A stretch of 16,379 nucleotides of DNA from a virus (Duplodnaviria > Heunggongvirae > Uroviricota > Caudoviricetes): IMG/VR virus record IMGVR_UViG_2602041863_000003, positions 1 to 16,379 of that record, one strand, 5' to 3'. How positions within the stretch are numbered: position 1 is the first letter of the stretch; each line of letters opens with the position of its first letter. The notes below the pieces were generated by a model. It did not search any database. It saw only the letters and a program-made list of their open reading frames with translations, and was not told where the DNA came from. Shown in pieces: positions 380-15,714 of this stretch. The position numbers and the translations under genes are program-made.

Positions 380-397
380 TGATGGGTATTGTGCTCT

Positions 398-883
398 ATG
401 GCTGAGATTGTTGAAGGAGTGCATTACCTTACGGTTGATGATCTTGTTGAAATCAATCGTTCCCTAATTGAATTACAGACGCCAGATGAGCCCGTTGGTG
501 TTCTGAGTCCAGATAACTTAAGTTCTTCTCAGGCCCGTCCCAGCATGGTTCGATGGTATGAACAGACTAATGACATGTTTGTACTGGCATCGGTATTGAT
601 TGAAAGTCTGATTCAGAATCATCCGTTTGCTAATGCGAACAAACGAACAGCTATGATGGCTGGTTACGTCTTCTTGTTGTTGAATGGCTATGAGTTAACA
701 GCACCAGGCGATGAAATCGTGGAAATGGCAGAGGGACTGGCCTGCAAAACCTATACTCGAGAAGATCTCGAGAACTGGTTGTGTTATTGGTCTCGCGCGT
801 ATGACAGCCGGGAATTATGTAAAACAGGCGCAACTATTGTTTTGTATGAAACTATCAAGCTTAAAATAGAACAGCAAAACTAA
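398..883 (+). CDS. Doc/Fic-family toxin (death-on-curing-like)
   Basis: Translation contains HPFANANKRTA, matching the Doc-type HxFx(D/N)(A/G)NKR motif; ATG at 398 inside the ORF-track 389 TTG start. Confidence 0.75.
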   Translation: MAEIVEGVHYLTVDDLVEINRSLIELQTPDEPVGVLSPDNLSSSQARPSMVRWYEQTNDMFVLASVLIESLIQNHPFANANKRTAMMAGYVFLLLNGYELTAPGDEIVEMAEGLACKTYTREDLENWLCYWSRAYDSRELCKTGATIVLYETIKLKIEQQN

Positions 884-2334: not shown

Positions 2335-2694
2335 ATGCTCATAGATTTGGTTTTACCTTACCCGCCGACGGTGAACACTTACTGGCGACGCCGTGGCAGC
2401 ACATATTTTATCTCGGAGGAGGGAAAGCGTTATCGCCGGGCTGTGGCGCTTATTGTTCGCCAGCAGCGGCTGAAATTAAACCTGTCCGGAAGGCTGGCGA
2501 TAAAGGTGATTGCAGAGCCACCGGATAAACGTCGTCGTGACCTGGACAATATCCTGAAAGCACCACTGGATGCACTGACACATGCGGGGTTGCTTATCGA
2601 CGACGAGCAGTTTGATGAAATTAATATTGTGCGCGGTCAGCTTGTTCCTGGTGGGCGGTTGGGGATAAAAATCACAGAACTGGAGTGCGCATGA
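2335..2694 (+). CDS. rusA: Crossover junction endodeoxyribonuclease RusA (Holliday junction resolvase)
   Basis: 119 aa; LPYPPTVNTYW...RRRDLDNILKAPLDALT...GGRLGIKITE resembles RusA as recalled; RBS AAGAGGTG upstream. Confidence 0.85.
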   Translation: MLIDLVLPYPPTVNTYWRRRGSTYFISEEGKRYRRAVALIVRQQRLKLNLSGRLAIKVIAEPPDKRRRDLDNILKAPLDALTHAGLLIDDEQFDEINIVRGQLVPGGRLGIKITELECA

Positions 2695-3380
2695 ATAACC
2701 AGTATTTACAGTTTGTTCGTGAGCAACTCATGATTGCCACCGCCGATTTGAGTGGATCAACAAAAGGGCAGCTTGAAGCCTGGCAGGAGAATGCCATGTT
2801 CGATACAGGGCGTTACAGGCGAAAAAAAATCCGGTACCGCGATGAAGTGACTGGAAAAATGATAACGCGGGATAATCCACCAATCCCGGGAAAGCAATCG
2901 CTGGCGAAAGGTTCATCAATTGCCCTGGTCAGTCCGGTTGAGTTTTCGACATCATCATGGCGACGCGCCGTTCTGTCTCTTGAAGAGCATCAGAAGGCGT
3001 GGGTGCTGTGGGTATACAGTGAAAATCCGAGTTGGGATTATCAGGTGGTCATTGCGAAATGGGCGTGGGATAAGTTTCAGGTGCATTTTGGCACCAGAAA
3101 AATTACAGGGAAAACGCTTGAGCGTCTGAAGAAATTAATCTGGCTGGCGGCGCAGGATGTCAGGGGGAGGATTACTGGGCGTGACGTCTACCAGCGACAG
3201 GAACTTGCCAGACTGTGTGGAGTTAAGCCTGACAACTGGAGCCATAATTATGCGAACTACTGGCGTGAGATGTGCGACATTTTTAAGAAACTCGATACAG
3301 AATCCTTGATTTGCACCGTGAAAATGAGATCGCAACAAAAAGCGACCTTTTCACGACGAGATATTGCAAAAGTCAATTAA
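2691..3380 (+). CDS. Late-gene antitermination protein Q (lambdoid Q family)
   Basis: ATG at 2691 overlaps rusA stop (ATGA); 229 aa; position after rusA and before a terminator hairpin is the canonical Q locus; similarity to Q is from recall. Confidence 0.75.
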   Translation: MNNQYLQFVREQLMIATADLSGSTKGQLEAWQENAMFDTGRYRRKKIRYRDEVTGKMITRDNPPIPGKQSLAKGSSIALVSPVEFSTSSWRRAVLSLEEHQKAWVLWVYSENPSWDYQVVIAKWAWDKFQVHFGTRKITGKTLERLKKLIWLAAQDVRGRITGRDVYQRQELARLCGVKPDNWSHNYANYWREMCDIFKKLDTESLICTVKMRSQQKATFSRRDIAKVN

Positions 3381-3426
3381 ATCGCATACATTTTATGTAA
3401 ATGTGATATTTTGCCGTATAGTGTGT

Positions 3427-3451
3427 AAACCCGCTTAAATGCGGGTTTTTT
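3427..3451 (+). terminator. Intrinsic terminator hairpin downstream of Q (candidate tR'-like)
   Basis: aaacccgcttaaatgcgggtttttt: perfect stem cccgc/gcggg, T6 tail; possible -10 TATAGT at 3417-3422 (weak). Confidence 0.55.
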
Positions 3452-3524
3452 GCTTAACTCTGTGGACCTTTTTATCTGTAGTTGTAAGATATGGATATTC
3501 TTACAATTTAGGTCGGTGAGCTTA

Positions 3525-4289
3525 ATGGAAGAACAGCACGGTAATTACTTTATAAAACGAATTCAGTTGATTGGAAGGGGTGCATTTGGCTTTGTTGAAC
3601 ACGTTAAGGTTTACAACCTCAACAAGGGTGAATGTGGGGATTATGCTAGAAAGGTTTTAGCCCCCGAAAAACCAGAGCTTTTGGCGCAAATAGAGCAGTT
3701 TAGAAGGCGTTTTAAAAGGGAGGTCGTGTATCAATCACATTGCGTACATAGCAATATTGTTCCTATTTATTTGTGCGATTTGTTTGCCGAGAATCCATGG
3801 TTCATTATGGATAAAGCAGAATGTGATCTTGAGCACGAAATAACGAACAACCTTCTTACAACAGATCAAAAAATTTCAATAGTGAAAATGGTATTAGATG
3901 GTGTAGCTCACATCCATGCGAAAGGCTATTTACACAGAGATATAAAACCATTTAATGTCTTGCGATTTAGCGACGGAACATACAAGGTGTCTGATTTTGG
4001 TCTGGTAAAAGATACAAATCCCGAAGGGGATACCACTAAATTGACCGAGATCGGTACCCGTATGGGAAGTACAAGATATATGGCTCCCGAGATTTTATAT
4101 AATGCCGAGTATTCAGTTAAGACTGATGTTTATGCGGTGGGGCGGTTAATTGAGGACTTAAATTTAGATGATAAAAAAATAAAGCCTATCATAGCGAAGT
4201 GTACCAGGATGGATAAAGATGATAGATATCAGACAATAGATGATGTGGCGTTTGATTTTGTGCATTCTTTTTTAAGGAGTGAGTCATGA
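3525..4289 (+). CDS. Eukaryotic-like (Hanks-type) Ser/Thr protein kinase, minimal catalytic domain only
   Basis: Gly-rich loop IGRGAFGFV, candidate beta3 Lys in YARKV, HRDIKPFN catalytic loop, DFG (VSDFGL), APE (YMAPE); ATG 3525 with GGTGAG upstream; ORF-track start 3450 is a TTG inside the terminator. Confidence 0.85.
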   Translation: MEEQHGNYFIKRIQLIGRGAFGFVEHVKVYNLNKGECGDYARKVLAPEKPELLAQIEQFRRRFKREVVYQSHCVHSNIVPIYLCDLFAENPWFIMDKAECDLEHEITNNLLTTDQKISIVKMVLDGVAHIHAKGYLHRDIKPFNVLRFSDGTYKVSDFGLVKDTNPEGDTTKLTEIGTRMGSTRYMAPEILYNAEYSVKTDVYAVGRLIEDLNLDDKKIKPIIAKCTRMDKDDRYQTIDDVAFDFVHSFLRSES

Positions 4290-5029
4290 TTCAGCTGATA
4301 GCGACTTCATCATTCTCGTATCCAAAAGAACCAGGTAGGGTCAACGAAGATTCATTGCTTCCTCCCAAAATTGTAGGGGATGGCATCTTATTTGCCGTAG
4401 CTGATGGTGTAGGTTCATACACTGGTGCCAGTCAGGCTTCATCAATGGCAATTGCTGAACTTTCAGCATTGACAAGCTTATCTTTTGACACAGTTCCGGA
4501 TGTATTTGATGAAGTTAAGCGAAAGGTTATGTCGTTAGCTGATGTTAATGATGAGTTCGATAAAGCTGCTACTACACTTACGTTTTGTTATGTTTGTGAT
4601 AGCGGAATTATTATTGGTCATATTGGTGATTGTCGTTTGTATTGCATTGGAGAGAAGAAAGCATACCAATTGACGAAGGACGATACCAGGCATCAGATGC
4701 TAATTGATCAGAATATTTTTAAACCCAGAGATTTGAAGGATAAACCGGGCAAAAATATCTTAACGACGGCTATAGCCTCAAATGTTGATATGGAATACGA
4801 CTGTGATTTTATCACATGGAAAGATTTACCTAGTATTAACGGGGTATATCATCTGTGTATCATGTCTGATGGGGTTCATAACGTTTGGGAAAAACGCCCC
4901 AGATTTACATCAAATACGATGAGTAATAGTCAGAAGTTTTCTAATGGCATTTTGCGTCGTATAGAGAGAGCCGGACCTGATGATGACTTTTCTTTAGTAA
5001 GTATAATGGTGCGTGTGACGTCAGATTAG
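4286..5029 (+). CDS. PP2C-family Ser/Thr protein phosphatase
   Basis: NEDS, AVADGVGS, IGDCR, IMSDGVHN and C-terminal DDD residues match PP2C metal-binding motifs; AAGGAG RBS 6 nt upstream; ATG overlaps kinase stop (ATGA). Confidence 0.8.
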   Translation: MIQLIATSSFSYPKEPGRVNEDSLLPPKIVGDGILFAVADGVGSYTGASQASSMAIAELSALTSLSFDTVPDVFDEVKRKVMSLADVNDEFDKAATTLTFCYVCDSGIIIGHIGDCRLYCIGEKKAYQLTKDDTRHQMLIDQNIFKPRDLKDKPGKNILTTAIASNVDMEYDCDFITWKDLPSINGVYHLCIMSDGVHNVWEKRPRFTSNTMSNSQKFSNGILRRIERAGPDDDFSLVSIMVRVTSD

Positions 5030-5101
5030 TTGTATAAACTCAGTAGGGAATGCTAATTTCACATACAACATAGTTAAAGAAAACTTAATTTTAATGTAAA
5101 A

Positions 5102-5126
5102 AGGCTGCCCTCAGGCGGTCTTTTTA
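5102..5126 (+). terminator. Terminator-like imperfect hairpin plus T-run after phosphatase gene
   Basis: aggctgccctcaggcggtcttttt; 7-bp stem with two G-U pairs, A-run upstream and T-run downstream. Confidence 0.4.
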
Positions 5127-5248
5127 TGCTCGAAAATTGATGCAGTACGTTAAACGCGCTGGTGGTTGCGAATACCGGTCTTTCAGCTTGCTGGCTTTTT
5201 AGACAAGAGTTATTGGTATGTCACGTTAACCAGAAAAGGGAAAAAGAC

Positions 5249-5446
5249 ATGCTAAAACAGCAGGATATGACCGAAACCGCCAGAGTGGTGTTTAATGAAT
5301 TAAGCGTCACCGAACCGGCGACCGTCGGGGAAATTGCGCAGAATACTTACCTTTCACGCGAACGCTGCCAGTTAATCCTGACCCAGCTTGTTATGGCGGG
5401 TCTGGCAGATTATCAGTTCGGTTGTTACAGACGCCTTCTGCAGTGA
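5249..5446 (+). CDS. Small winged-helix-like DNA-binding protein (hypothetical regulator)
   Basis: 65 aa; ATG 5249 with AAGGGA upstream; VGEIAQNTYLSRERCQLILTQLVMAGL looks like a wHTH recognition segment. Confidence 0.45.
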   Translation: MLKQQDMTETARVVFNELSVTEPATVGEIAQNTYLSRERCQLILTQLVMAGLADYQFGCYRRLLQ

Positions 5447-5596
5447 AGGCTTTTTAATTTGTGGTAATGGGCGGCTGGTGGGTGTTAGCGGCACCTGCCA
5501 GCCATCTGCTCATGCGTTGGGGTCACAAGCAAACCTCAGGCCCATCTGCTTTGCGCAAAAGCAGTATGAGCCTATCAGAGAAGTGCTTATTGATCT

Positions 5597-6646
5597 ATGA
5601 CTAATACTGTAAAAATATCCAGTTGTGAGTTAATCAACGCTGATTGCCTGAAATTTATCCAGACCTTACCGGAAAACTCTGTCGATCTGATAGTCACAGA
5701 CCCGCCATACTTTAAAGTGAAGCCCGAGGGCTGGGATAACCAGTGGGAGGGCGACGATGATTACCTGAAATGGCTGGACCAGTGTCTGGCGCAGTTCTGG
5801 CGGGTACTGAAGCCTGCCGGAAGTCTTTACCTGTTCTGTGGTCATCGCCTGGCATCTGACACCGAAATCATGATGCGTGAGCGCTTTAATGTGCTGAACC
5901 ACATTATCTGGGCGAAGCCGTCCGGACGCTGGAACGGGTGCAATAAGGAAAGTCTGCGGGCGTATTTTCCGGCAACAGAGCGCATTCTGTTTGCAGAACA
6001 TTATCAGGGACCGTATCGCCCGAAAGATGATGGCTATGTGGCACAGGGGCGCGAGCTAAAACAGCACGTCATGGCCCCGCTGATTTCTTACTTTCGTGAT
6101 GCGCGTAAATCACTGGGAATAACGTCAAAACAGATAGCGGAAGCCACCGGAAAGAAAAACATGGCTTCGCACTGGTTTGGTACCAGTCAGTGGCAGTTAC
6201 CGAACGAGGGTGATTACAACAAATTGCAGGCGTTGTTTGCGCGTGTTGCGGCAGAAAAACATCAGCGCGGGGAACTGGAAAAGCCACACCACCAGCTGGT
6301 CAGCACATACAGTGAGCTGAACCGGCAGTACACGGAACTGCTGAGTGAATATAAAAATTTGCGGCGGTATTTCGGTGTGACGGCGCAGGTTCCGTACACC
6401 GATGTCTGGACGCATAAACCGGTGCAGTACTATCCAGGAAAACATCCGTGCGAAAAACCGGCAGAAATGCTGCAGCAGATAATCAACGCGAGCAGTCGTC
6501 CGGGAGACCTGGTTGCAGATTTTTTTATGGGTTCAGGTTCAACGGTAAAAGCGGCGATGGCACTGGGGCGTTGTGCGATTGGTGTTGAGCTGGAGACAGG
6601 ACGTTTTGAACAGACAGTCAGGGAAGTTCAGGATTTAATCGTTTGA
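5597..6646 (+). CDS. DNA methyltransferase, beta-class (N6-adenine or N4-cytosine), no adjacent restriction gene
   Basis: VTDPPYF (motif IV) near N-terminus and DFFMGSGST (motif I, AdoMet binding) near C-terminus: beta-class motif order. Confidence 0.85.
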   Translation: MTNTVKISSCELINADCLKFIQTLPENSVDLIVTDPPYFKVKPEGWDNQWEGDDDYLKWLDQCLAQFWRVLKPAGSLYLFCGHRLASDTEIMMRERFNVLNHIIWAKPSGRWNGCNKESLRAYFPATERILFAEHYQGPYRPKDDGYVAQGRELKQHVMAPLISYFRDARKSLGITSKQIAEATGKKNMASHWFGTSQWQLPNEGDYNKLQALFARVAAEKHQRGELEKPHHQLVSTYSELNRQYTELLSEYKNLRRYFGVTAQVPYTDVWTHKPVQYYPGKHPCEKPAEMLQQIINASSRPGDLVADFFMGSGSTVKAAMALGRCAIGVELETGRFEQTVREVQDLIV

Positions 6647-6695
6647 AACGGATGAGATTGCAGAATTAATTACGCACCATTATTATTCTGCTCCC

Positions 6696-6771
6696 GGCCC
6701 TTTAGCTCAGTGGTGAGAGCGAGCGACTCATAATCGCCAGGTCGCTGGTTCAAATCCAGCAAGGGCCACCA
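6696..6771 (+). tRNA. tRNA-Ile2-like (anticodon CAU; Met/Ile-lysidine type)
   Basis: Cloverleaf traced by hand: acceptor ggccctt/aagggcc, anticodon loop cucauaa, T-loop ttcaaat, CCA encoded; close to E. coli ileX as recalled. Confidence 0.85.
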
Positions 6772-6772
6772 A

Positions 6773-6849
6773 CCGTCACCAGTTCATCAGGAAAGAGCGT
6801 CAACCCTTTAAGTTGAGTGTGCGAGGTTCGAGTCCTCGGTGGCGGGCCA
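6773..6849 (+). tRNA. Atypical tRNA-like gene, anticodon read as UUU, with C8 and C33
   Basis: Acceptor ccgtcac/gtggcgg (one G-U), D-arm with G18G19, anticodon stem tcaac/gttga, loop ccuuuaa, T-arm cgagg-ttcgagt-cctcg, CCA encoded; departs from near-universal U8 and U33. Confidence 0.45.
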
Positions 6850-6851
6850 GT

Positions 6852-6927
<76 letters not shown>

Positions 6928-6930
6928 TAT

Positions 6931-7005
<75 letters not shown>

Positions 7006-7282
7006 GCATTTGAAATAAGCCTTATTGTATTGCAGCACTGGCGTATTTTTTATTACGTGGGAGCAGGTTGTTTTAAGAGACATTCTGTTCTCTGGCTATG
7101 ATTTGAGGCCAGGTTAGCCTCAGTGCTGATTTTTTTTACGACAGCAGAATGGTGCATTATCGGTGGAGATTTTGTATTTCCTGGCAGGGTCGGTAATGCA
7201 TCATTCTGATGTTGTAAGCATCGCTCAGAATAACGTTGAGATTAATCGCGTACTAAGCAAAACTTGGAAATACATCCTTAAC

Positions 7283-7305
7283 CGCCGCACCAGGCGGTTT
7301 TTTTT
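7283..7305 (+). terminator. Intrinsic terminator (ccgcc-gcacca-ggcgg + T8)
   Basis: Perfect 5-bp GC stem followed by eight T residues. Confidence 0.6.
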
Positions 7306-7429
7306 ATTCATTTTTTTCATGGCTCGCTACGGCGGGCCTTTTTCATATCCTCGCCACACCCGGCGCATATCACATCAAATAACGCCGCGCAAAAGGCATC
7401 TGCGGGCGCCTTTGACGGGGTGTTTTTAC

Positions 7430-7451
7430 GGGCCGCTGGTGGCCCTTTTTT
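7430..7451 (+). terminator. Terminator-like hairpin directly upstream of the lysis cassette RBS
   Basis: gggcc-gctggt-ggccc followed by T6; ends 7 nt before AGGAG RBS of the 7471 gene. Confidence 0.5.
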
Positions 7452-7470
7452 ATTTACAGGAGAAAAACGT

Positions 7471-7860
7471 ATGTCTGAACCCTTATCTGGTTCCGGCACG
7501 GCTGCGGCGCTCGGTGGGGCGACGGTATTCGGGCTGTTTACCGGAACGGATTTCGGGATTGTGTTTGGTGCGTTCGCCGGGGCGTTATTTGTGGCAACGA
7601 TGCCGCAGGCGCTTTCAATCTGGCGTGTGGTGGCGCATTTTTTGGTGTCGTTTATCGTCGGCGTGCTGGGGGCGCGCGTGCTGTCAGCCTGGATTGCATC
7701 AAAAACAGGGTATGACGGTACATCGGCAGATGCGCTGTGTGCGGTGCTGGTATCGGTGGTGTCGGTGAAGATTCTGTCGTTCATCCACCAGCAGGATATT
7801 GCATCGCTGGTGTCCGGTGTGTTCTCCCGTCTGCGGGGTGGAGGCGGTAATGTTAAGTAA
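7471..7860 (+). CDS. Membrane protein, putative holin (lysis cassette gene 1)
   Basis: 129 aa, AGGAG RBS 8 nt upstream; Gly/Ala-rich hydrophobic segments consistent with 3 TM helices; first gene of block ending in endolysin. Confidence 0.55.
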   Translation: MSEPLSGSGTAAALGGATVFGLFTGTDFGIVFGAFAGALFVATMPQALSIWRVVAHFLVSFIVGVLGARVLSAWIASKTGYDGTSADALCAVLVSVVSVKILSFIHQQDIASLVSGVFSRLRGGGGNVK

Positions 7861-8125
7861 CCTTCCCGGATTACTGAATGTGGTGTTAAGCACGGTTATC
7901 GTGCTGACGCTCTTTTTTTATCGTCGTGGTGATTCCAGACATAAACCGCTGATGTCGTGGCTGGCCTGGCTGCTGATGCTGCTGTATGCCTTTGCGCCAC
8001 TTTGTTATCTGTGTGGTCGCTTTCCACCCGGTAACTGGCTGGTCGTCCTGATTAACCTGGTGTTCTGCGTGCTGGTGATACGAGCACGCGGGAACGTATC
8101 AAAAATCCTTTCATTACGGAGGTGA
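7850..8125 (+). CDS. Small membrane protein, putative holin/antiholin-type lysis protein (lysis cassette gene 2)
   Basis: ATG 7850 with GGAGG 5 nt upstream, overlaps previous stop; 91 aa with 2-3 hydrophobic helices and basic C-terminus. Confidence 0.5.
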   Translation: MLSNLPGLLNVVLSTVIVLTLFFYRRGDSRHKPLMSWLAWLLMLLYAFAPLCYLCGRFPPGNWLVVLINLVFCVLVIRARGNVSKILSLRR

Positions 8126-8127
8126 GT

Positions 8128-8505
8128 ATGCCCGGTAAATTCAGATTCAGTCGTCGAAGTGAGAAAAATCTGGAGGGCGTCAAACCACAGCTGGTTGCTG
8201 TTGTTCGCCGTGCGCTGGAGCTGACGGAGGTTGACTTCGGTATTACGGAAGGCCTGCGCAGTAAGTATCGCCAGAAGCAGCTGGTCGCGGAAGGGAAAAG
8301 CCAGACCATGAACAGCCGCCACCTGACCGGTGATGCGGTGGATGTTGTGGCCTACATTGGTAGCCAGGTGTCATGGGACTGGCCTCTGTACGAGAAAATC
8401 GCGCAGGCATTTAAGCAGGCTGCCGCAGAGCTGGGAACTGCCATCGAATGGGGCGGGGACTGGAAAACACTGAAAGACGGGCCTCACTTTCAGTTGAAGC
8501 GCTAA
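8128..8505 (+). CDS. Endolysin, peptidase M15 family (L-alanyl-D-glutamate peptidase-like)
   Basis: SRHLTGDAVDV (SxHxxGxAxD zinc-binding motif) and DGPHFQ (DxxH); GGAGG RBS; 125 aa. Confidence 0.8.
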   Translation: MPGKFRFSRRSEKNLEGVKPQLVAVVRRALELTEVDFGITEGLRSKYRQKQLVAEGKSQTMNSRHLTGDAVDVVAYIGSQVSWDWPLYEKIAQAFKQAAAELGTAIEWGGDWKTLKDGPHFQLKR

Positions 8506-9845: not shown

Positions 9846-10340
9846 ATGGATCGAGAGTTAAAAAATCTGACGCTGAATATCAGTCAACTGGCGGCATTGT
9901 CAGGTGTACATCGCCAGACTGCTGCGGCAAGGCTGCAAAATCTACCCGTTGCAGGGGGGCATGAAAGCAACCTCAAGCTTTATCGGGTGGTTGATATTGT
10001 GTCGGCATTTCTGGCATTACCACCGCCGGTTGCAGAAGGCGAAATGGACGCGCATGAGCGCAAAGCCTGGTATCAGTCTGAACGTGAGCGTCTTAAGTTC
10101 GAACAGGAAACGGCGCAACTCATTCCGGCCAGTGATGTCAGACGGGAGTTTGCCATCTGGGCAAAAGCGGTCGTGCAGGTGCTGGAGACATTACCGGATA
10201 TTCTTGAACGTGACTGCGGTCTGCAGCCTGCCGCTGTGAGCCGTGTTCAGTCCATTATTGATGATCTGCGCGATCAGATAGCCCTGCGGGTGACCGAAGC
10301 AGGTGCGGATGATGAGGAGGAATTACAGCAGGAGGAGTAA
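9846..10340 (+). CDS. Terminase small subunit (Nu1-like DNA packaging protein)
   Basis: N-terminal wHTH-like LTLNISQLAALSGVHRQTAAARL, acidic C-terminus; GGAG RBS; stop overlaps large-subunit ATG. Confidence 0.75.
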   Translation: MDRELKNLTLNISQLAALSGVHRQTAAARLQNLPVAGGHESNLKLYRVVDIVSAFLALPPPVAEGEMDAHERKAWYQSERERLKFEQETAQLIPASDVRREFAIWAKAVVQVLETLPDILERDCGLQPAAVSRVQSIIDDLRDQIALRVTEAGADDEEELQQEE

Positions 10341-12442
10341 TGCTGAATCAGGAAACCGCAAAGGCAGCACGAACCGATTCAGGTTATATCCTTCGCGCAC
10401 CGAGACGAATGCAGGTTGCTGATGCCGTTGCTCAATATATGCGGGTGCCCATGGGGGCCGGGAACTCAGTCCCGTGGGATCCGCTGGTGGCACCGTATGT
10501 TATTGAGCCGATGAACTGCCTGGCCTCGCGTGAATACGACGCAGTGATATTTGTTGGCCCGGCACGAACCGGCAAGACTATCGGCCTGATTGACGGCTGG
10601 GTGATTTACAACGTGATTTGCGATCCTGCGGATATGCTGATCATTCAGATGACGGAGGAAAAAGCCCGCGAACACTCCAAAAAACGACTTGCCAGAACGT
10701 TTCGCGTCAGCCCGGAAGTGGTCAGTCGCCTGAGTCCGAACAAAAATGACAACAACGTTTATGACAGAACATTCCTTGCTGGTAACTACCTGAAAATCGG
10801 CTGGCCGTCAGTCAATATCATGTCCTCATCAGATTATAAATGCGTCGCGCTGACGGATTATGACCGTTTTCCGGAAGATATTGATGGCGAGGGGGATGCT
10901 TTCTCTCTTGCCTCAAAACGTACCACAACATTTATGTCCAGTGGTATGACGCTGGTGGAGAGTTCCCCCGGCAGGGATGTGAAGGATGTGAAATGGCGAC
11001 GGACTTCACCGCATGAGGCTCCACCAACCACGGGGATCCTGTCGCTCTATAACCGTGGTGATCGCCGTCGCTGGTACTGGCCCTGTCCACACTGTGGTGA
11101 GTATTTTCAGCCCTGCGGCGATGTGGTTGCTGATTTCCGTGATATTGCCGATCCCGTGCTGGCAAGTGAGGCGGCTTATATTCAGTGTCCTTCCTGTTCA
11201 GGACGGATTATGCCTGAACAAAAACGTGAGCTGAACGGACGTGGGGTCTGGTTGCGGGATGGTGAATCCATCAATGCGGATGGCAGTCGTTATGGTGATC
11301 CCCGACGCTCACGTATTGCGTCATTCTGGATGGAGGGTCCGGCAGCTGCTTACCAGACACTCTCGCAACTCGTTTACAAACTGCTTACTGCAGAACAGGA
11401 ATACGAGACAACCGGAAGTGAAGAAACACTCAAGACGGTTATCAATACCGACTGGGGATTACCTTATCTTCCCCGTGCCAGCATGGAGCAACGAAAAAGT
11501 GAACTGCTTGAGCAGCGGGCAGAGCCAGTTCTTTCCCGCAGTGTGCCGGATGGCGTTAATTTCCTTGTGGCGACAGTGGATGTGCAGGCGGGACGTCATC
11601 GCCGTTTTGTGGTTCAGGTAACGGGCTATGGCAGCCGTGGCGAACGCTGGATTATTGATCGTTACAACATCACGCAGTCATTGCGCGGTGACAGCGACGG
11701 GGAGAGCCAGCGAATTGATCCGGCCAGCTACCCGGAAGACTGGGATGTCCTGCTGACGGATGTTTTTCATAAAAGCTGGCCGCTGGCCTCCGATCCTTCT
11801 CAACAAATGCGACTGATGGCAATGGCGGTGGACTCCGGCGGTGAAGACGGGGTCACTGATAATGCCTATAAATTCTGGCGTCGTTGCCGTCGTGATGGCC
11901 TTGGTAAACGTATTTACCTGTTTAAGGGTGACAGCATCCGGCGCGCAAAACTGATCAGCCGTACATTCCCTGATAACACCGGACGAACGGGCCGCCGGGC
12001 GCAGGCCGCAGGTGATGTGCCGCTCTGGCTTCTTCAGACGGATGCCCTGAAAGACCGGGTGAATAACGCGTTATGGCGTGACTCGCCAGGTCCCGGCTAT
12101 GTGCATTTCCCTGACTGGCTGGGGAGCTGGTTTTACGACGAACTGACGTATGAAGAGCGGAGCAGTGACGGGAAATGGAGTAAGCCGGGTCGCGGTGCCA
12201 ACGAAGCTTTTGACCTGATGGTGTATGCCGAGGCTCTGGTCATTCTGCATGGATACGAAAAGATCCGCTGGCCGGATGCACCGGAGTGGGCGAGCCGGGA
12301 AACCTGGCTGGAGTGTGTCCCGGACAGTACCGAACCGTCACCCTCACCGGAACCGGTATCCACGCCTGTTAAAAAACAAAAACGGAAGAAAACAGTAACT
12401 GACGATGTTAACCCCTGGCTGACTTCCGGAGGATGGTTATGA
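10340..12442 (+). CDS. Terminase large subunit (lambda gpA-like)
   Basis: 700 aa; Walker A VGPARTGKT; CPHCGEYF zinc-finger-like motif as in lambda gpA (CPHCGE). Confidence 0.9.
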   Translation: MLNQETAKAARTDSGYILRAPRRMQVADAVAQYMRVPMGAGNSVPWDPLVAPYVIEPMNCLASREYDAVIFVGPARTGKTIGLIDGWVIYNVICDPADMLIIQMTEEKAREHSKKRLARTFRVSPEVVSRLSPNKNDNNVYDRTFLAGNYLKIGWPSVNIMSSSDYKCVALTDYDRFPEDIDGEGDAFSLASKRTTTFMSSGMTLVESSPGRDVKDVKWRRTSPHEAPPTTGILSLYNRGDRRRWYWPCPHCGEYFQPCGDVVADFRDIADPVLASEAAYIQCPSCSGRIMPEQKRELNGRGVWLRDGESINADGSRYGDPRRSRIASFWMEGPAAAYQTLSQLVYKLLTAEQEYETTGSEETLKTVINTDWGLPYLPRASMEQRKSELLEQRAEPVLSRSVPDGVNFLVATVDVQAGRHRRFVVQVTGYGSRGERWIIDRYNITQSLRGDSDGESQRIDPASYPEDWDVLLTDVFHKSWPLASDPSQQMRLMAMAVDSGGEDGVTDNAYKFWRRCRRDGLGKRIYLFKGDSIRRAKLISRTFPDNTGRTGRRAQAAGDVPLWLLQTDALKDRVNNALWRDSPGPGYVHFPDWLGSWFYDELTYEERSSDGKWSKPGRGANEAFDLMVYAEALVILHGYEKIRWPDAPEWASRETWLECVPDSTEPSPSPEPVSTPVKKQKRKKTVTDDVNPWLTSGGWL

Positions 12443-12633
12443 ACCAGAATGATATCGAAGCCATGATTCAGCGTTATACGGAAGCTGAAATGGCGGTGCT
12501 GGACGGAAAATCCGTCACCTTTAATGGTCAGCAGATGACCATGGAAAACTTATCTGAGATCCGGCAGGGACGGCAGGAGTGGGAGCGCCGCCTTGCGGCT
12601 CTGATTACACGACGACGGGGGCATCCCGGGTAG
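12439..12633 (+). CDS. Head-tail joining protein W-like (gpW family)
   Basis: About 64 aa ending ...ITRRRGHPG, like the lambda gpW C-terminus (...RRRGPAGFYV) as recalled; start overlaps terminase stop (ATG at 12433 or 12439). Confidence 0.65.
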   Translation: MNQNDIEAMIQRYTEAEMAVLDGKSVTFNGQQMTMENLSEIRQGRQEWERRLAALITRRRGHPG

Positions 12634-12688
12634 CGGTGTTTATGATGCAGATATCAGTGGTGCATCGACATTAATCCTCCACTTCAAT

Positions 12689-13063
12689 ATGAATGCGGGG
12701 AGTTGCCCTGCTGTACAGTTCCGCGTGAATTACAGGAACGGCGGTATTTTTTATCGTTCAGCGCGTGATGGTTATGGCTTTGAAGCTAACTGGTCAGAGT
12801 TTTACACCACAACACGCAAACCCTCTGCGGGGGATGTTGGTGCATATACGCAGGCAGAATGTAACTCAAGGTTTATTACAGGTATTCGCCTTGGCGGTCT
12901 GTCATCTGTTCAGACATGGAAAGGCCCCGGCTGGTCTGACAGGTCAGGTTATGTCGTTACGGGTTCAGTTAACGGAAACCGTGATGAATTAATTGATACA
13001 ACTCAGGCAAGGCCAATTCAGTATTGCATTAATGGGACGTGGTATAACGCGGGGAGTATTTAA
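12689..13063 (+). pseudogene. Side tail fibre C-terminal fragment (5'-truncated remnant fused downstream of W)
   Basis: Lies immediately upstream of a tail-fibre assembly gene; the frame stays open upstream of ATG 12689 to at least 12623 with no start, indicating a truncated gene at a deletion junction. Confidence 0.55.
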
Positions 13064-13065
13064 CG

Positions 13066-13599
13066 ATGATGCACTTAAAAAACATTACTGCTGGCAACCC
13101 TAAAACAAAAGAGCAATACCAGCTAACAAAGCAATTTAACATCAAATGGCTTTATTCAGATGATGGAAAAAACTGGTATGAGGAACAAAAGAATTTCCAG
13201 CCAGACACTTTGAAAATGGTCTATGACCATAACGGCGTTATTATTTGTATTGAAAAGGATGTTTCAGCAATTAATCCAGAGGGTGCAAGCGTCGTTGAAT
13301 TACCTGATATTACAGCAAATCGCCGGGCTGATATTTCGGGGAAATGGATGTTCAAAGATGGCGTAGTGATAAAGCGAACTTATACCGAGGAAGAGCAGAG
13401 GCAACAAGCGGAAAATGAAAAGCAAAGCCTGTTGCAACTTGTCAGGGATAAAACCCAGCTATGGGACTCACAGCTACGGCTGGGCATCATTTCCGACGAG
13501 AATAAACAAAAATTAACCGAGTGGATGCTCTATGCGCAGAAAGTCGAATCTACAGACACCTCCAGCCTGCCAGTAACATTTCCAGAACAACCAGCATGA
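13066..13599 (+). CDS. tfa: Tail fibre assembly protein (Tfa)
   Basis: 177 aa; N-terminus MMHLKNITAGNP; C-terminal LTEWMLYAQKVESTDTSSLPVTFPEQPA typical of lambdoid/e14 Tfa. Confidence 0.8.
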   Translation: MMHLKNITAGNPKTKEQYQLTKQFNIKWLYSDDGKNWYEEQKNFQPDTLKMVYDHNGVIICIEKDVSAINPEGASVVELPDITANRRADISGKWMFKDGVVIKRTYTEEEQRQQAENEKQSLLQLVRDKTQLWDSQLRLGIISDENKQKLTEWMLYAQKVESTDTSSLPVTFPEQPA

Positions 13600-13627
13600 A
13601 ACAAGGCCCGATAGCGGGCCTTAATTT

Positions 13628-13981
13628 TTATTCAGGCTTTTGTGGCCATTCAGGATTTGCCGTATCCACACGGCTGACCAGAACACTGTAGCGTCCCCAT
13701 GCTTCCAGTCGTGTGCGTTCCTCGTCTGTTGCCATATTCAGCCTGACAGCGCGTTCCAGCGGCCGAATAACGCTTTCTGCTTCGGAAAGTAACGCGGCCT
13801 TTTGTGATTCGGCCTGTTGTTGCTGTTCGTCAGCCGTATAAATCCGTTTAACGACTGCGTCGTCCTTAAACATCCACTTTCCGGAATCATCAGCGCGGCG
13901 GTTGGCTGGTGAACTTTCGATAGTGCGAGTATTGAATGATTTCCAGCCGTTATCGATTTTATATAACTGCCGTGGAATTAT
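13628..13981 (-). pseudogene. Inverted tail fibre assembly gene fragment (tfa', 5'-truncated)
   Basis: Minus-strand translation ...[31 protein letters not shown]...[25 protein letters not shown] parallels the plus-strand Tfa ([31 protein letters not shown]); frame extends upstream of Met 13873 to an in-frame stop at 13982-13984 with no start. Confidence 0.7.
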
Positions 13982-14391
13982 TCAACACACAGGAAAAACG
14001 GAATAAGCTGAGAAAAAAGCGTGCTTTCCCAATCTGGGGCAAATCACGTCTGAATGACACCTGAAAATTTCCCGTCCGTTAAGTGTCCGCCCCGAGAGAA
14101 GTGGGAACCATAACACCCTGTCGGGACGCAGAAAGAAACAATACAACTTGCAGGGATATTTTCTTGATAAAGCATGAATGAGCAAGTGATTGTTTGTGCT
14201 GGCGGGGATTTTAGGAATTTTTCTTCATTTTAATGTATAGAATTCAAACAGCAAGCGAGAGAAAGTCTTTCTGCAAAACTAAAAGAGATTTCAATAAAAT
14301 CAAGCAGTTAAAAACACGGGAAAACGGTATAAAAAAGCATCTCAAAATCCTGTTTTTTCTTTTATGTACAATGTGTTATTGCATTTTTTAA

Positions 14392-14517
14392 AATCTATCA
14401 GTGTGGTACATGGATATCGATACCACCGCCAATTATAAGCTGGGCGGTGCACAGCAACACGATAGCGTACGCCTCGATCCGTGGGTGTTTATGTTCTCAG
14501 CAGGATATCGTTTTTAA
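14392..14517 (+). pseudogene. ompW: ompW 3'-terminal fragment (likely attR-side remnant of prophage insertion)
   Basis: Frame translates NLSVWYMDIDTTANYKLGGAQQHDSVRLDPWVFMFSAGYRF*, matching the OmpW C-terminus as recalled; in-frame stop at 14389-14391 just upstream; no upstream ompW sequence. Confidence 0.75.
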
Positions 14518-14530
14518 TTCCGCACAAAAA

Positions 14531-14553
14531 CGACCCCGTAATATACGGGGTCA
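14531..14553. terminator. Bidirectional terminator between ompW remnant and yciE
   Basis: gaccccgta-atat-acggggtc hairpin flanked by A-run and T-containing sequence, between convergent genes. Confidence 0.55.
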
Positions 14554-14576
14554 ATAAGGACATTGTATAAAGGGTA

Positions 14577-15083
14577 TTATTTCTTCGCTTCTACGCCATC
14601 AGTTTCAGAGCGAATTAAAAATTTCTCAGTTGTTTGCGGAATATTCTGAATCAGCCAGTCGGCCATTTGCTTTTCCTCATTTAAAATCGCTTCGATGGTT
14701 GGAATTGAAGCTGTATCACCGGCATTTTTTGCTGCTGCTAATAGTGAGGTGTAACAGGCGATTTCAAATTGCTCGAAGACATATCCGCTAATAGAGCCTT
14801 TGACTATTTCATCAGAAGGGAATATACCACCGATTGACTGCCCAAGCGCAGCCATTTTACTCATGGAATCTTTAATGACTGAACGTGAAATGTCATTACG
14901 ATCAAGAATAGTTTCCAGTTGAACAATCTGGTTTTTGGTTTCACTAAGATGTTGTTCAATACGAGCGCGTAGTTCAGGATAATTATCTATACGGCTGGCC
15001 ATGGATTCAAGCATAGATTCGGCTTGCTTTTCCATTGCGTGGGCGTCACGTAACCAGTCATGATAATGTTCAATACGATTCAT
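14577..15083 (-). CDS. yciE: YciE (DUF892 ferritin-like stress protein)
   Basis: 168-aa translation MNRIEHYHDWLRDAHAMEKQAE... matches E. coli YciE as recalled; AGAGGA RBS. Confidence 0.9.
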   Translation of the reverse strand: MNRIEHYHDWLRDAHAMEKQAESMLESMASRIDNYPELRARIEQHLSETKNQIVQLETILDRNDISRSVIKDSMSKMAALGQSIGGIFPSDEIVKGSISGYVFEQFEIACYTSLLAAAKNAGDTASIPTIEAILNEEKQMADWLIQNIPQTTEKFLIRSETDGVEAKK

Positions 15084-15128
15084 GAAAATATCCTCTTTAT
15101 AAAATGACTAAAAGTTAAAATTCATATT

Positions 15129-15629
15129 TCAGGCTTTATTTTCGGCTTTCTTATTTACGTTATTAATGGCCAGATCAGTCAGTTTGATGTCGGTGGCCTT
15201 TTCTTCTTCCAGGGTTTCTTTCAGAAGCTTCGCTGCTTTACGGTAACCTAATTGTTCAGCCAGCGTCGCTAATGTCCCGTAACTGGCAATCTCATAATGC
15301 TCGACTTTCTGTGCTGCGGCAATCAGTGCGGCATCACGCACTTCGTTTTTCTCGGTACTTTCGATGACCTCATTAGCTTCTTCAATAAGACCTTCCATTG
15401 CCACACATTTCATGCGCTTAATTTTCAGGTTCGATTCGGACTCCACAACTTGATCAATACGTTCAATCTGTCCATGAGTTTCCTCGAGGTGCGCATGAAA
15501 AGCCTGACTTAATTTTTCATTTGATGTTGCTCTTGCGAGTTTTGCCAGTGCCCGGGTTAATTGTTTTTCTGCGCTGTAGGTATCTGAAAGCAGGTGAATA
15601 AATACATCTTCAATGGTCTTCATATTCAT
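15129..15629 (-). CDS. yciF: YciF (DUF892 ferritin-like stress protein)
   Basis: Translation from MNMKTIEDVFIHLLSDTYSAEKQ... matches E. coli YciF as recalled; start chosen at internal ATG with GGAG RBS rather than ORF-track 15677. Confidence 0.9.
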   Translation of the reverse strand: MNMKTIEDVFIHLLSDTYSAEKQLTRALAKLARATSNEKLSQAFHAHLEETHGQIERIDQVVESESNLKIKRMKCVAMEGLIEEANEVIESTEKNEVRDAALIAAAQKVEHYEIASYGTLATLAEQLGYRKAAKLLKETLEEEKATDIKLTDLAINNVNKKAENKA

Positions 15630-15714
15630 ATTTTTCTCCAGTGAAATCACTGCGAGCCATACGGCCCGCAGATGCAATTATCTTTATCAGCTGATATTAA
15701 TAATTAACGGTGAA

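What the first reader, a model, noticed from the sequence alone, without database searches (positions are those of the whole stretch)
5249..6646. Orphan beta-class DNA methyltransferase preceded by a small winged-helix protein
The methyltransferase has DPPY before the FxGxG motif (beta-class order) and no restriction endonuclease gene nearby. The 65-aa wHTH-like ORF about 150 bp upstream could be a dedicated regulator. Sitting between the kinase/phosphatase cassette and the tRNAs in the late operon, it may protect progeny DNA or act epigenetically.
Basis: partly seen in the sequence, partly recalled or inferred. Interest (0 to 1): 0.45.

Follow-up and report, generated by a model that had tools for sequence, protein, structure and literature searches.

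The report
M.EcoGII-type phage methylase with conserved control module
The gene is a close relative of M.EcoGII, a well-known prophage enzyme that methylates every adenine regardless of sequence. It is ordinary in itself, but it travels with a small winged-helix gene and an undescribed structured RNA leader that may explain how this toxic enzyme is kept silent.

Summary
A 65-aa ORF lies at 5249-5446, followed by a 150-nt spacer and a 349-aa beta-class methyltransferase at 5597-6646 (DPPY 35-38, FxGxG 310-314). No restriction enzyme is encoded in the window. The module sits between Q and the lysis genes of a defective E. coli lambdoid prophage.

The methyltransferase is not a new orphan. [quoted passage not shown] No sequence motif should therefore be expected. 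About half of complete E. coli genomes carry the module.

The small ORF is a real gene (dN/dS about 0.01-0.09). It is predicted to be a minimal winged helix and precedes the methyltransferase in 56/78 diverged genome loci and 102/109 viral loci. It has its own conserved promoter-like element, but its role as a regulator is untested.

The most novel item is the spacer. It is a conserved structured leader of about 131 nt, always followed by this methyltransferase, with compensatory base changes and no Rfam match. It has two competing folds, one of which hides the ribosome-binding region, which lacks a canonical Shine-Dalgarno sequence. This is a testable candidate mechanism for silencing.

The parts
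2691..3380 (+). Q antiterminator gene (context: it defines the start of the late operon)
   Evidence: Pfam Phage_antiter_Q PF06323 at E=5e-84. RefSeq annotation of the identical segment agrees.
3402..3454 (+). Putative late promoter PR' followed by the tR' terminator. It comprises an extended -10 (TGTGATATT, 3402-3410), a -10-like TATAGT (3417-3422), and a hairpin 3427-3448 with a U-run.
   Evidence: The terminator was found by the scan and folds at -13.8 kcal/mol, z=-3.9. The promoter and pause elements were read by eye and are an inference only.
5103..5125 (+). Intrinsic terminator after the PP2C gene, upstream of the small-ORF cassette
   Evidence: The fold is -18.3 kcal/mol with z=-5.1, followed by UUUUU. 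A GC hairpin plus T-run occupies the same place in most related loci (alignment).
5187..5224 (+). Conserved promoter-like or operator-like element of the small-ORF cassette: CTTGCTG-N16-TTATTG within ...AGAGTTATTGGTATGTCAC
   Evidence: It is conserved from E. coli to Xenorhabdus upstream of the small ORF. The core AGAGYT..TGTRTG lies 329-398 nt before the methyltransferase ATG in 148 loci and is absent from every locus that lacks the small ORF. The sigma-70 consensus scan did not flag it.
5249..5446 (+). Small winged-helix protein gene (65 aa; PHROG 331, 'unknown function')
   Evidence: It is under purifying selection and predicted to be a winged helix. Helix 3 (RCQLILTQLVMAGL) is the most conserved part. 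The family has only 498 protein clusters; the hits that carry an organism name are almost all Enterobacterales.
5433..5455 (+). Hairpin P0 with a T-run that overlaps the stop codon of the small ORF. It is terminator-like.
   Evidence: Found by the terminator scan; folds at -10.2 kcal/mol, z=-2.8. A hairpin of varying sequence sits at the same place in all loci that have the leader, including those without the small ORF.
5466..5596 (+). Conserved structured 5' leader RNA of the methyltransferase. Elements: S1 AAUGGGCG 5466-5473; long hairpin P1b 5473-5503; P2 5507-5510 with 5528-5531; invariant GGUCA 5521-5525; S3 GGCCCA 5539-5544; hairpin P3 5546-5564; S4 UGAGCC 5567-5572; GCUU 5585-5588; UGAUC 5591-5595.
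   Evidence: The length from AAUGGGCG to three bases past the ATG is 134-138 nt. Several helices show compensatory changes, and G.U pairs occur only on the + strand. There is no Rfam match. The element is followed by this methyltransferase in 114/114 viral loci.
5597..6646 (+). M.EcoGII-family beta-class N6-adenine methyltransferase (349 aa)
6696..7005 (+). tRNA cluster that follows the methyltransferase: CAU anticodon (annotated Ile) 6696-6771, Lys-UUU 6852-6927, Gly-UCC 6931-7005
   Evidence: ARAGORN, Rfam and RefSeq annotation.
7280..8505 (+). Downstream end of the unit: terminator-like hairpins (7280-7345), then holin, second holin and endolysin

Best explanation
The 349-aa gene encodes a member of the M.EcoGII family. 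This is a prophage-borne beta-class methyltransferase that converts adenines to N6-methyladenine in any sequence context. It lies in the Q-dependent late transcription unit of a lambdoid prophage, which here is defective. In the lysogen it is kept off by a series of intrinsic terminators downstream of Q (3427-3454, 5103-5125, 5433-5455). It is also kept off by a structured leader of about 131 nt that lacks a Shine-Dalgarno sequence. The most stable fold of this leader pairs the invariant GGUCA-CAAGC segment with GCUU..UGAUC immediately 5' of the AUG. After induction, Q-modified RNA polymerase reads through the terminators. The leader then adopts, or is driven into, its alternative three-way-junction fold, which frees the start region, and the enzyme hypermethylates phage DNA so that it resists many restriction systems. 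The 65-aa winged-helix gene is a conserved companion cassette with its own promoter-like element. It most likely encodes a nucleic-acid-binding regulator of the module. What is shown: the family assignment, the gene order, the linkage, the purifying selection and the conservation and covariation of the leader. What is inferred: non-specific activity of this allele, late-only expression, the on/off model of the leader, and any regulatory action of the winged-helix protein.
For: Identity: 316/350 residues match M.EcoGII, with the same length of 349 aa (the sequence comes from PMC11551740 Table S1). In the recognition domain (residues 160-237), 65/78 residues are identical. [quoted passage not shown] Homologues at about 93% similarity are listed as 'nonspecific' and gave no motif in lysogens (PMC6602927). 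[quoted passage not shown] A locus whose enzyme is 96.9% identical to M.EcoGII has the same small ORF, hairpin and leader. Context: Q lies upstream, lysis genes lie downstream, and terminators are predicted in between. The same module lies between Q and the tRNAs and stx genes in phiP27, and downstream of Q in phage 1720a-02; Stx2 phages and SfV carry the small ORF-methyltransferase pair. It is present in 2877 of 5426 complete E. coli genomes. Leader: it is present in about 50 of 52 genome loci outside Xenorhabdus and Photorhabdus, and is followed by the methyltransferase in 114/114 viral loci. The junction fold is 94.3% paired on a MAFFT alignment, with 12 pairs changed on both sides, and 0/500 shuffles reach this. 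One P2 pair shows CG, UA, AU and UG in 27, 11, 9 and 4 sequences. The minimum-energy fold is -63.1 kcal/mol with z=-5.8. In 31/52 independent folds the GUCA:GAUC helix forms. The two folds differ by a median of 4.1 kcal/mol. Both folds are 93-94% paired on the model-based alignment. Small ORF.
Against: No expression or methylation data exist for this allele. Thirteen of 78 recognition-domain residues differ from M.EcoGII. The M.EcoGII sequence I used was read by machine from a PDF and contains a few obvious errors. This prophage lacks head and tail genes, so protection of its own progeny cannot be the current function here. The helix that would hide the start region consists mostly of invariant bases, so covariation cannot confirm it. 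One diverged member (L031) has lost both of its strands. The leader exists without the small ORF. Xenorhabdus and Photorhabdus loci have the small ORF but only a shortened leader. The late promoter was assigned by eye.
Confidence: 0.72

Rival explanations
1. The winged-helix protein is a DNA-binding transcription factor, analogous to the C proteins of restriction-modification systems. It would bind the conserved element upstream of its own gene (5187-5224), autoregulate the cassette, and thereby set how much transcription reaches the methyltransferase.
For: The fold is typical of bacterial repressors such as IclR, ArsR and MarR. The recognition helix is the most conserved segment. The conserved upstream element occurs only together with the ORF. 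Linkage with the methyltransferase is tight.
Against: A hairpin with a T-run and about 130 nt of structured RNA separate it from the methyltransferase. No clear dyad operator was found. The sigma-70 scan did not call a promoter. The methyltransferase and leader persist without the ORF in about 20 loci.
Confidence: 0.35
2. The winged-helix protein acts after transcription, like Com of phage Mu on mom. It would bind the leader RNA and shift it from the closed fold to the open fold, switching on translation of a toxic DNA-modification enzyme only late in infection.
For: A small gene lies immediately upstream of a toxic modification gene. The leader has two competing conserved folds, one of which hides the start region. 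Winged helices that bind RNA, such as SelB and Zalpha, are among the structural neighbours. [quoted passage not shown]
Against: The protein is not a zinc finger like Com. The leader occurs without the ORF, and the ORF occurs with a shortened leader. There is no direct evidence of RNA binding.
Confidence: 0.2
3. The small ORF is an independent moron with its own promoter and terminator. It would sit next to the methyltransferase only because both occupy the same insertion hot spot downstream of Q.
For: It has its own promoter-like element and is flanked by terminators. The two units can be separated. PHROGs lists the family as function unknown.
Against: The position and spacing are fixed (the ORF ends 130-160 nt before the methyltransferase ATG) across genera in which the ORF has diverged to 38-50% identity. 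In 75/76 loci the methyltransferase follows. The family is small and, among hits that carry an organism name, almost confined to Enterobacterales; in every locus examined but one it sits upstream of this methyltransferase.
Confidence: 0.15
4. The methyltransferase is an ordinary sequence-specific orphan enzyme, like YhdJ or CcrM, with a regulatory or epigenetic role in the lysogen.
For: NCBI names it 'site-specific DNA-methyltransferase'. Thirteen recognition-domain residues differ from M.EcoGII.
Against: [quoted passage not shown] Homologues give no motif in lysogens. The best equivalog models score far below their cut-offs: YhdJ-like PRK11524 at 110 versus 292 bits, and CcrM at 71 versus 830 bits.
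Confidence: 0.07
5. The conserved spacer is not a regulatory switch. It might be conserved for mRNA stability or processing of the methyltransferase-tRNA transcript, or for a signal at the DNA level.
For: The start-hiding helix lacks covariation. No ligand or factor is known. tRNA genes that need processing follow directly.
Against: Compensatory changes and strand-specific G.U pairs indicate that selection acts on an RNA structure. Two mutually exclusive sets of helices each have some support. The element keeps a fixed distance to a start codon that has no canonical Shine-Dalgarno sequence.
Confidence: 0.2

Closest known systems
M.EcoGII and M.EcoGI of E. coli O104:H4 C227-11 (Murray et al. 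2018, PMC5778455)
   Same: Same length (349 aa), about 90% identity, beta-class motif order, a central helical recognition domain, and a lambdoid prophage location. Native loci with a 97%-identical enzyme carry the same upstream ORF, hairpin and leader.
   Different: This is a different allele with 34 differences, 13 of them in the recognition domain. Its activity has not been measured. None of the M.EcoGII papers I read mention the upstream ORF or the leader.
Phage Mu com-mom module
   Same: A toxic DNA-modification gene is expressed only late, is preceded by a small gene, and has an mRNA structure that hides its start site. [quoted passage not shown] The details of Com action come from my own knowledge.
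   Different: Com is a zinc-finger protein and Mom is not a SAM-dependent methyltransferase. There is no sequence or fold relationship. Action of the winged-helix protein on RNA is untested.
Controller (C) proteins of type II restriction-modification systems
   Same: A small DNA-binding protein gene lies upstream of a modification or restriction gene and could time its expression.
   Different: C proteins are Xre-type helix-turn-helix proteins with C-box operators, and they control a restriction enzyme. Here the fold is a winged helix, no restriction enzyme is present, and no C-box-like dyad was found.
Other phage anti-restriction methyltransferases (P1 Dmt, T4 Dam, alpha-class promiscuous enzymes such as Hia5)
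   Same: Phage-encoded adenine methyltransferases with relaxed or broad specificity, thought to protect phage DNA.
   Different: They belong to a different class (alpha or Dam-like), have defined or relaxed motifs, and occur in different gene contexts.
Morons downstream of Q and PR' in lambdoid and Stx phages (stx genes, the sRNAs StxS, AgvB and AsxR)
   Same: The location in the phage genome is the same. In phiP27 and phage 1720a-02 the same small ORF-methyltransferase module lies upstream of stx.
   Different: StxS is the PR'-tR' transcript of phages with a short Q. AgvB and AsxR lie 3' of the moron. None of these corresponds to the leader described here.

Membership tests
M.EcoGII family (non-specific beta-class N6-adenine methyltransferases) | Beta-class order: catalytic DPPY motif N-terminal, SAM-binding FxGxG motif C-terminal | tested here: met
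   D35PPY38 and F310MGSG314. PF01555 matches at E=2e-44.
M.EcoGII family (non-specific beta-class N6-adenine methyltransferases) | Full-length close similarity to M.EcoGII, including the central recognition domain (residues 160-237) | tested here: met
   316/350 residues are identical and the length is the same. In residues 160-237, 65/78 are identical. The protein is 85% identical to the reconstructed ancestor Anc291. The reference sequence was machine-read from a PDF.
M.EcoGII family (non-specific beta-class N6-adenine methyltransferases) | Methylates adenine in any sequence context (DNA, ssDNA, RNA) | not testable with these tools
   This needs expression followed by LC-MS or long-read methylome analysis.
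M.EcoGII family (non-specific beta-class N6-adenine methyltransferases) | Carried by a lambdoid prophage and not expressed in the lysogen | tested here: inconclusive
   The prophage late-region location is confirmed. Silence is only inferred from terminators and the closed leader fold.
Type II restriction-modification system | A cognate restriction endonuclease gene next to the methyltransferase | tested here: not met
   No ORF of the window has a restriction-endonuclease domain. The neighbours vary between loci.
TrmB family transcriptional regulators (PF01978) | Score above the Pfam gathering threshold | tested here: not met
   The score is 18.3 bits against a cut-off of 25.6, E=0.002. NCBIfam gives no hit. 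The name in RefSeq rests on this weak similarity.
Winged helix-turn-helix fold | H1-S1-H2-H3-S2-wing-S3 topology | tested here: met
Zalpha (Z-DNA/Z-RNA binding) domains | Signature Asn and Tyr in helix 3 and Trp in the wing | tested here: not met
C-protein controllers of restriction-modification systems | Xre-type HTH protein with a dyad C-box operator upstream of its own gene | tested here: not met
   The fold is a winged helix, not Xre. The conserved upstream element has no clear dyad.
Known RNA families (Rfam 15) | A match of the leader to any covariance model | tested here: not met
   At gathering thresholds the window yields only tRNAs. With E up to 10 on 5380-5680 there are only two chance hits, to a miRNA and a snoRNA.
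Cis-regulatory RNA switch (riboswitch-like or protein-actuated) | Conserved multi-helix structure with covariation, fixed position before a start codon, and alternative folds affecting the start region | tested here: inconclusive
   Structure and covariation are shown. The position is fixed. Two competing folds are supported. The effector and the effect on translation are unknown.
Mu Com/Mom-type translational activation | A small upstream-encoded protein binds the leader and opens a hairpin that hides the start site | not testable with these tools
   Only the gene order and the predicted start-hiding helix are observed.

The most novel reading that the evidence does not exclude
The terminator-like hairpin, the leader of about 131 nt and the winged-helix gene together form an undescribed post-transcriptional safety circuit for M.EcoGII-type enzymes. 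The leader would be a new class of bistable RNA switch. Its closed state has GGUCA-CAAGC paired to GCUU-UGAUC at the start codon. Its open state is a three-way junction of P1, P1b and P2. It would be flipped late in infection by the winged-helix protein, in the manner of Com on mom, or by another late signal. This would explain how a methyltransferase lethal to its host is carried silently by about half of E. coli genomes.
Probability: 0.3. Interest if true: 0.62.

Novelty: new member of a known kind. Interest (0 to 1): 0.42.

Why it matters
M.EcoGII is a widely used reagent for chromatin and RNA footprinting and a model for the beta-class methyltransferases. How its natural gene is kept silent yet ready is not explained in the papers I could read. 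The module described here is very common. It is present in 2877 of 5426 complete E. coli genomes, with up to 8 copies, and lies next to the Shiga toxin genes in many Stx phages. A conserved companion protein and a structured leader give concrete, cheap experiments on that question. They also add a candidate new cis-regulatory RNA to a well-studied organism. For the finding as originally worded, the practical message is that no sequence motif should be expected and that lysogen methylomes will look empty.

Tried and rejected
- **Known RNA families for the spacer.** The Rfam gathering scan and a permissive scan found nothing.
- **Published prophage sRNAs.** I checked whether the spacer equals AgvB, AsxR, EcOnc, StxS or the Pas sRNAs. 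Their described positions are different: 3' of the moron, PR'-tR' of short-Q phages, or near structural genes.
- **Leader peptide or attenuator.** The invariant AUG in AAUGGGCG opens MGGWWVL-stop in most loci. In this window it opens a 45-codon frame that ends at UAA overlapping the methyltransferase AUG. The peptide length and sequence are not conserved, Trp-Trp is lost in L060, L073 and L081, and there is no Shine-Dalgarno sequence. I rejected this as a general mechanism.
- **Local hairpin AUCAG/CUGAU over the start region.** It is broken by C.A and A.G mismatches in about a third of sequences.
- **RfaH ops and lambda boxA similarity** of GGCGGCUGG and CGCUCAU. The key positions do not match (by inspection).
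- **Zalpha-type function for the small protein.** The signature residues are absent.
- **Restriction or defence partner for the methyltransferase.** None was found. The kinase resembles the defence kinases PD-T4-6 and mad6, but it is not conserved next to the methyltransferase in other loci.
- **The exact M.EcoGII protein in the search results.** It is hidden inside 90% clusters. The closest locus is 96.9% identical.
- **Covariance model on Xenorhabdus and Photorhabdus loci.** No hit. A manual alignment shows that they keep only the P1b-like hairpin and a similar 3' part.
- **Reverse search with the small protein.** It returned only near-identical viral loci, so the frequency of the methyltransferase given the winged-helix gene is measured only among close relatives.
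Full report
**What is there.** The window is part of an E. coli lambdoid prophage. Bases 5100-6700 are 100% identical to ETEC O6:H16 strain 2014EL-1346-6 and 99.8% identical to E24377A.

The + strand carries the following, in order:
- a Doc/Fic toxin, a DUF968 protein and RusA;
- the Q antiterminator (2691-3380);
- a terminator-like hairpin (3427-3448);
- a Ser/Thr kinase (3525-4289) and a PP2C phosphatase (4286-5029);
- the 65-aa ORF (5249-5446) and a 150-nt spacer;
- the 349-aa methyltransferase (5597-6646);
- three tRNA genes (6696-7005) and several terminator-like hairpins;
- two holins and an endolysin (7420-8505);
- terminase genes (9846-12442);
- directly afterwards, tail-fibre fragments and the host genes yciE and yciF.

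The prophage has therefore lost its head and tail genes.

**What the methyltransferase is.** The same small ORF, methyltransferase and tRNA module occurs in phiP27, many Stx2 phages, phage 1720a-02 and SfV. In phiP27 and phage 1720a-02 it lies between Q (or a moron downstream of Q) and the tRNA and stx genes. It is present in 2877 of 5426 complete E. coli genomes.

Murray et al. (PMC5778455) name the phage 1720a-02 enzyme as very similar to M.EcoGII. M.EcoGII is the 349-aa non-specific adenine methyltransferase of E. coli O104:H4. It sits on a prophage, is not expressed in normal growth and is harmful when expressed constitutively. The M.EcoGII sequence printed in the SUPREM paper (PMC11551740, Table S1, machine-read) matches the window protein at 316 of 350 positions over the full length. 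Within the recognition domain (residues 160-237), 65 of 78 positions are identical.

The window protein is also 85% identical to the reconstructed ancestor Anc291, whose DNA- and RNA-methylating activity was measured. [quoted passage not shown] At several recognition-domain positions where the window protein differs from M.EcoGII, it agrees with Anc291. Homologues at about 93% similarity in O111 STEC are listed as 'nonspecific' and gave no detectable motif in lysogens.

I therefore file the gene in the M.EcoGII family. I expect motif-free m6A formation and silence in the lysogen. Activity itself cannot be tested here.

**The small ORF.** It is a real gene.
- Against 44 distinct alleles, dN/dS is 0-0.09 with dS up to 0.37.
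- It is PHROG 331, 'unknown function'. PADLOC and NCBIfam give no hit.
- Pfam TrmB matches only below threshold.
- The AlphaFold2 model from a shallow alignment has a classic winged-helix topology. The best model has pLDDT 88.7 and the other four score 54-70.
- The family is small: 498 protein clusters among 5.8 billion proteins. The hits that carry an organism name are almost all Enterobacterales.
- Helix 3 (RCQLILTQLVMAGL) is the most conserved segment.

**Linkage of the small ORF and the methyltransferase.** I examined 80 genome loci that encode methyltransferases 64-91% identical to the window's. Seventy-eight of them have upstream sequence. In 56 of these, a homologue of the small ORF (38-100% identical) ends 130-160 nt before the methyltransferase start. 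This includes Xenorhabdus and Photorhabdus. In viral contigs, 102 of 109 loci have the ORF. Conversely, 75 of 76 loci found through the small protein have the methyltransferase 154-160 nt downstream, although those loci are close relatives.

Upstream of the ORF there is a GC hairpin with a T-run (window 5103-5125; -18.3 kcal/mol). There is also a conserved element, CTTGCTG-N16/17-...AGAGTTAYNTGTRTGTCA (window 5187-5224). This element is found only where the ORF is present. It looks like a weak sigma-70 promoter, possibly with a binding site, but the consensus scan did not call it.

So the small ORF is a self-contained cassette that is strongly but not obligatorily linked to the methyltransferase. 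Whether it regulates the methyltransferase is untested.

**The spacer is a conserved structured RNA.** The 150-nt gap is far more conserved than expected for an intergenic region. It stays with the methyltransferase even in the roughly 20 loci that lack the small ORF. From the invariant AAUGGGCG to three bases past the ATG the element measures 134-138 nt. It is followed by this methyltransferase in 114 of 114 viral loci. It is found in about 50 of 52 genome loci outside Xenorhabdus and Photorhabdus. Rfam 15 has no match at gathering thresholds or at E up to 10.

Compensatory changes are plain in the long hairpin P1b (for example GGCUGG/CCAGCC becomes GAUCGG/CCGAUC, ACCGGG/CCCGGU or GGCAGA/UCUGCC). 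They are also plain in P2, where one pair occurs as CG, UA, AU and UG in 27, 11, 9 and 4 sequences. G.U pairs are frequent on the + strand only, so selection acts on the RNA that forms the 5' leader of the methyltransferase mRNA.

**Two competing folds of the leader.** A three-way-junction fold (P1, P1b and P2, followed by the hairpin P3) is 94.3% paired on a plain MAFFT alignment. It has 12 pairs changed on both sides, 0/500 column shuffles reach this, and the values are far above slid controls.

A second, mutually exclusive fold is equally compatible. In it S1 pairs with S2, which extends P1b, and S3 pairs with S4 around P3. It shows some two-sided changes of its own.

Thermodynamic folding of the window leader gives this second fold at -63.1 kcal/mol with z=-5.8. 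It adds a long-range helix in which the invariant GGUCA-CAAGC (5521-5531) pairs with GCUU..UGAUC (5585-5595). The latter lies immediately before an AUG that has no canonical Shine-Dalgarno sequence. That helix appears in 31 of 52 independent minimum-energy folds. Forcing the junction fold costs a median of only 4.1 kcal/mol and leaves more of the start region unpaired.

This is the anatomy of a translational switch. However, the start-hiding helix is made of nearly invariant bases, so covariation cannot confirm it. One diverged member (L031) has lost both of its strands. Xenorhabdus and Photorhabdus loci keep only the P1b-like hairpin and a similar 3' part.

**How it most likely works.** Downstream of Q, an extended -10 (TGTGATATT) is followed by a -10-like TATAGT and a strong terminator (3402-3454). 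This resembles a lambdoid PR'/tR' unit. I read it by eye; the terminator is supported.

In the lysogen, transcription would stop there. Any transcript that escapes, or that starts at the small-ORF cassette, would meet further terminators at 5103-5125 and 5433-5455 and a leader folded in its closed state. After induction, Q-modified polymerase would read through. The leader would open, either by a kinetic route or with the help of a factor, and the enzyme would methylate adenines throughout replicating phage DNA. This would blunt many restriction systems, which is the role proposed for M.EcoGII.

[quoted passage not shown] In Mu, the small protein Com, encoded just upstream of mom, opens a start-hiding hairpin; this detail is from my own knowledge. 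That makes a Com-like role for the winged-helix protein an attractive rival to the more conventional idea of a DNA-binding regulator. I rate the two at about 0.2 and 0.35.

**Novelty and verdict.** The enzyme is a new allele of a well-characterised family, and the gene pair is already annotated in RefSeq. As worded, the finding is of modest interest, and its proposed test is ill-posed.

What I could not find in the M.EcoGII papers I read is any mention of the conserved winged-helix companion, its own promoter-like element, or the structured leader with two competing folds. Two full-text literature searches did not surface one either. These features give a concrete hypothesis for how a host-toxic methyltransferase is carried silently by half of E. 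coli genomes. They lift the interest to a moderate level.

Noticed in passing
window 3525-5029 (+): The Ser/Thr kinase resembles anti-phage defence kinases: PADLOC mad6 at E=1e-39, PD-T4-6 at E=1e-34, and Stk2. It overlaps by 4 bases with a PP2C phosphatase gene. The pair looks like a kinase/phosphatase moron between Q and the methyltransferase module. It is not conserved next to the methyltransferase in other phages.
   Followed up: partly
window 6773-6849 (+): ARAGORN calls a fourth tRNA (Lys-UUU, 77 nt) between the Ile and Lys genes. Rfam's tRNA model and RefSeq do not. It is probably a degenerate tRNA-like remnant.
   Followed up: no
window 9846-15677: The prophage is defective. The terminase genes (9846-12442) are followed directly by a tail-fibre C-terminal fragment and a tail-fibre assembly gene (12689-13599). 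Then come the host genes yciE and yciF on the minus strand (14577-15677). Portal, capsid and tail genes are missing.
   Followed up: partly
window 3402-3454 (+): Just after Q there is an extended -10 (TGTGATATT), a -10-like TATAGT about 7 nt further on, and a strong terminator. This resembles a PR' promoter with a sigma-dependent pause element and tR', and would give a transcript of only about 35 nt. I read it by eye.
   Followed up: partly
window 5592-5595 (+): A GATC (Dam site) is nearly invariant 1 nt before the methyltransferase start codon (UGAUCUAUG) in E. coli-type loci. It may simply be part of the RNA element or of a non-canonical pairing with the 16S rRNA 3' end. A DNA-level role, as in Dam control of Mu mom, was not examined.
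   Followed up: no
window 5461-5604 (+): In this window and its closest relatives (phiP27, some Stx2 phages) a 47-codon frame runs through the whole leader and stops at UAA overlapping the methyltransferase AUG (AUGACUAA). This layout would allow translational coupling. In most other loci the same frame stops after 7 codons (MGGWWVL), so it is not conserved.
   Followed up: partly
L052-L083 (Xenorhabdus and Photorhabdus loci), about 80-100 nt before the methyltransferase start: These loci have the small ORF and the methyltransferase but a shorter spacer. It keeps the AAAUGGGCGGCUGGUGG...CCAGCC hairpin, here flanked by GGUGAA/UUCACC, and a related 3' part. It lacks P2, S3 and P3. The central part of the E. 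coli-type leader therefore looks like an insertion, or has been deleted here.
   Followed up: partly
window 7280-7445 (+): Three or four terminator-like hairpins with T-runs are clustered between the tRNAs and the first holin, one of them inside the start of the holin ORF. The region 2600-7600 has 15 terminator-like sites against 4.2 expected from shuffles.
   Followed up: no
window 389-883 (+) and L003 4730-5784: A Doc/Fic-family toxin gene lies in the early-late region. The identical strain also has hokD and a YdaT-like toxin just upstream. Several toxin-type morons sit in one prophage.
   Followed up: no
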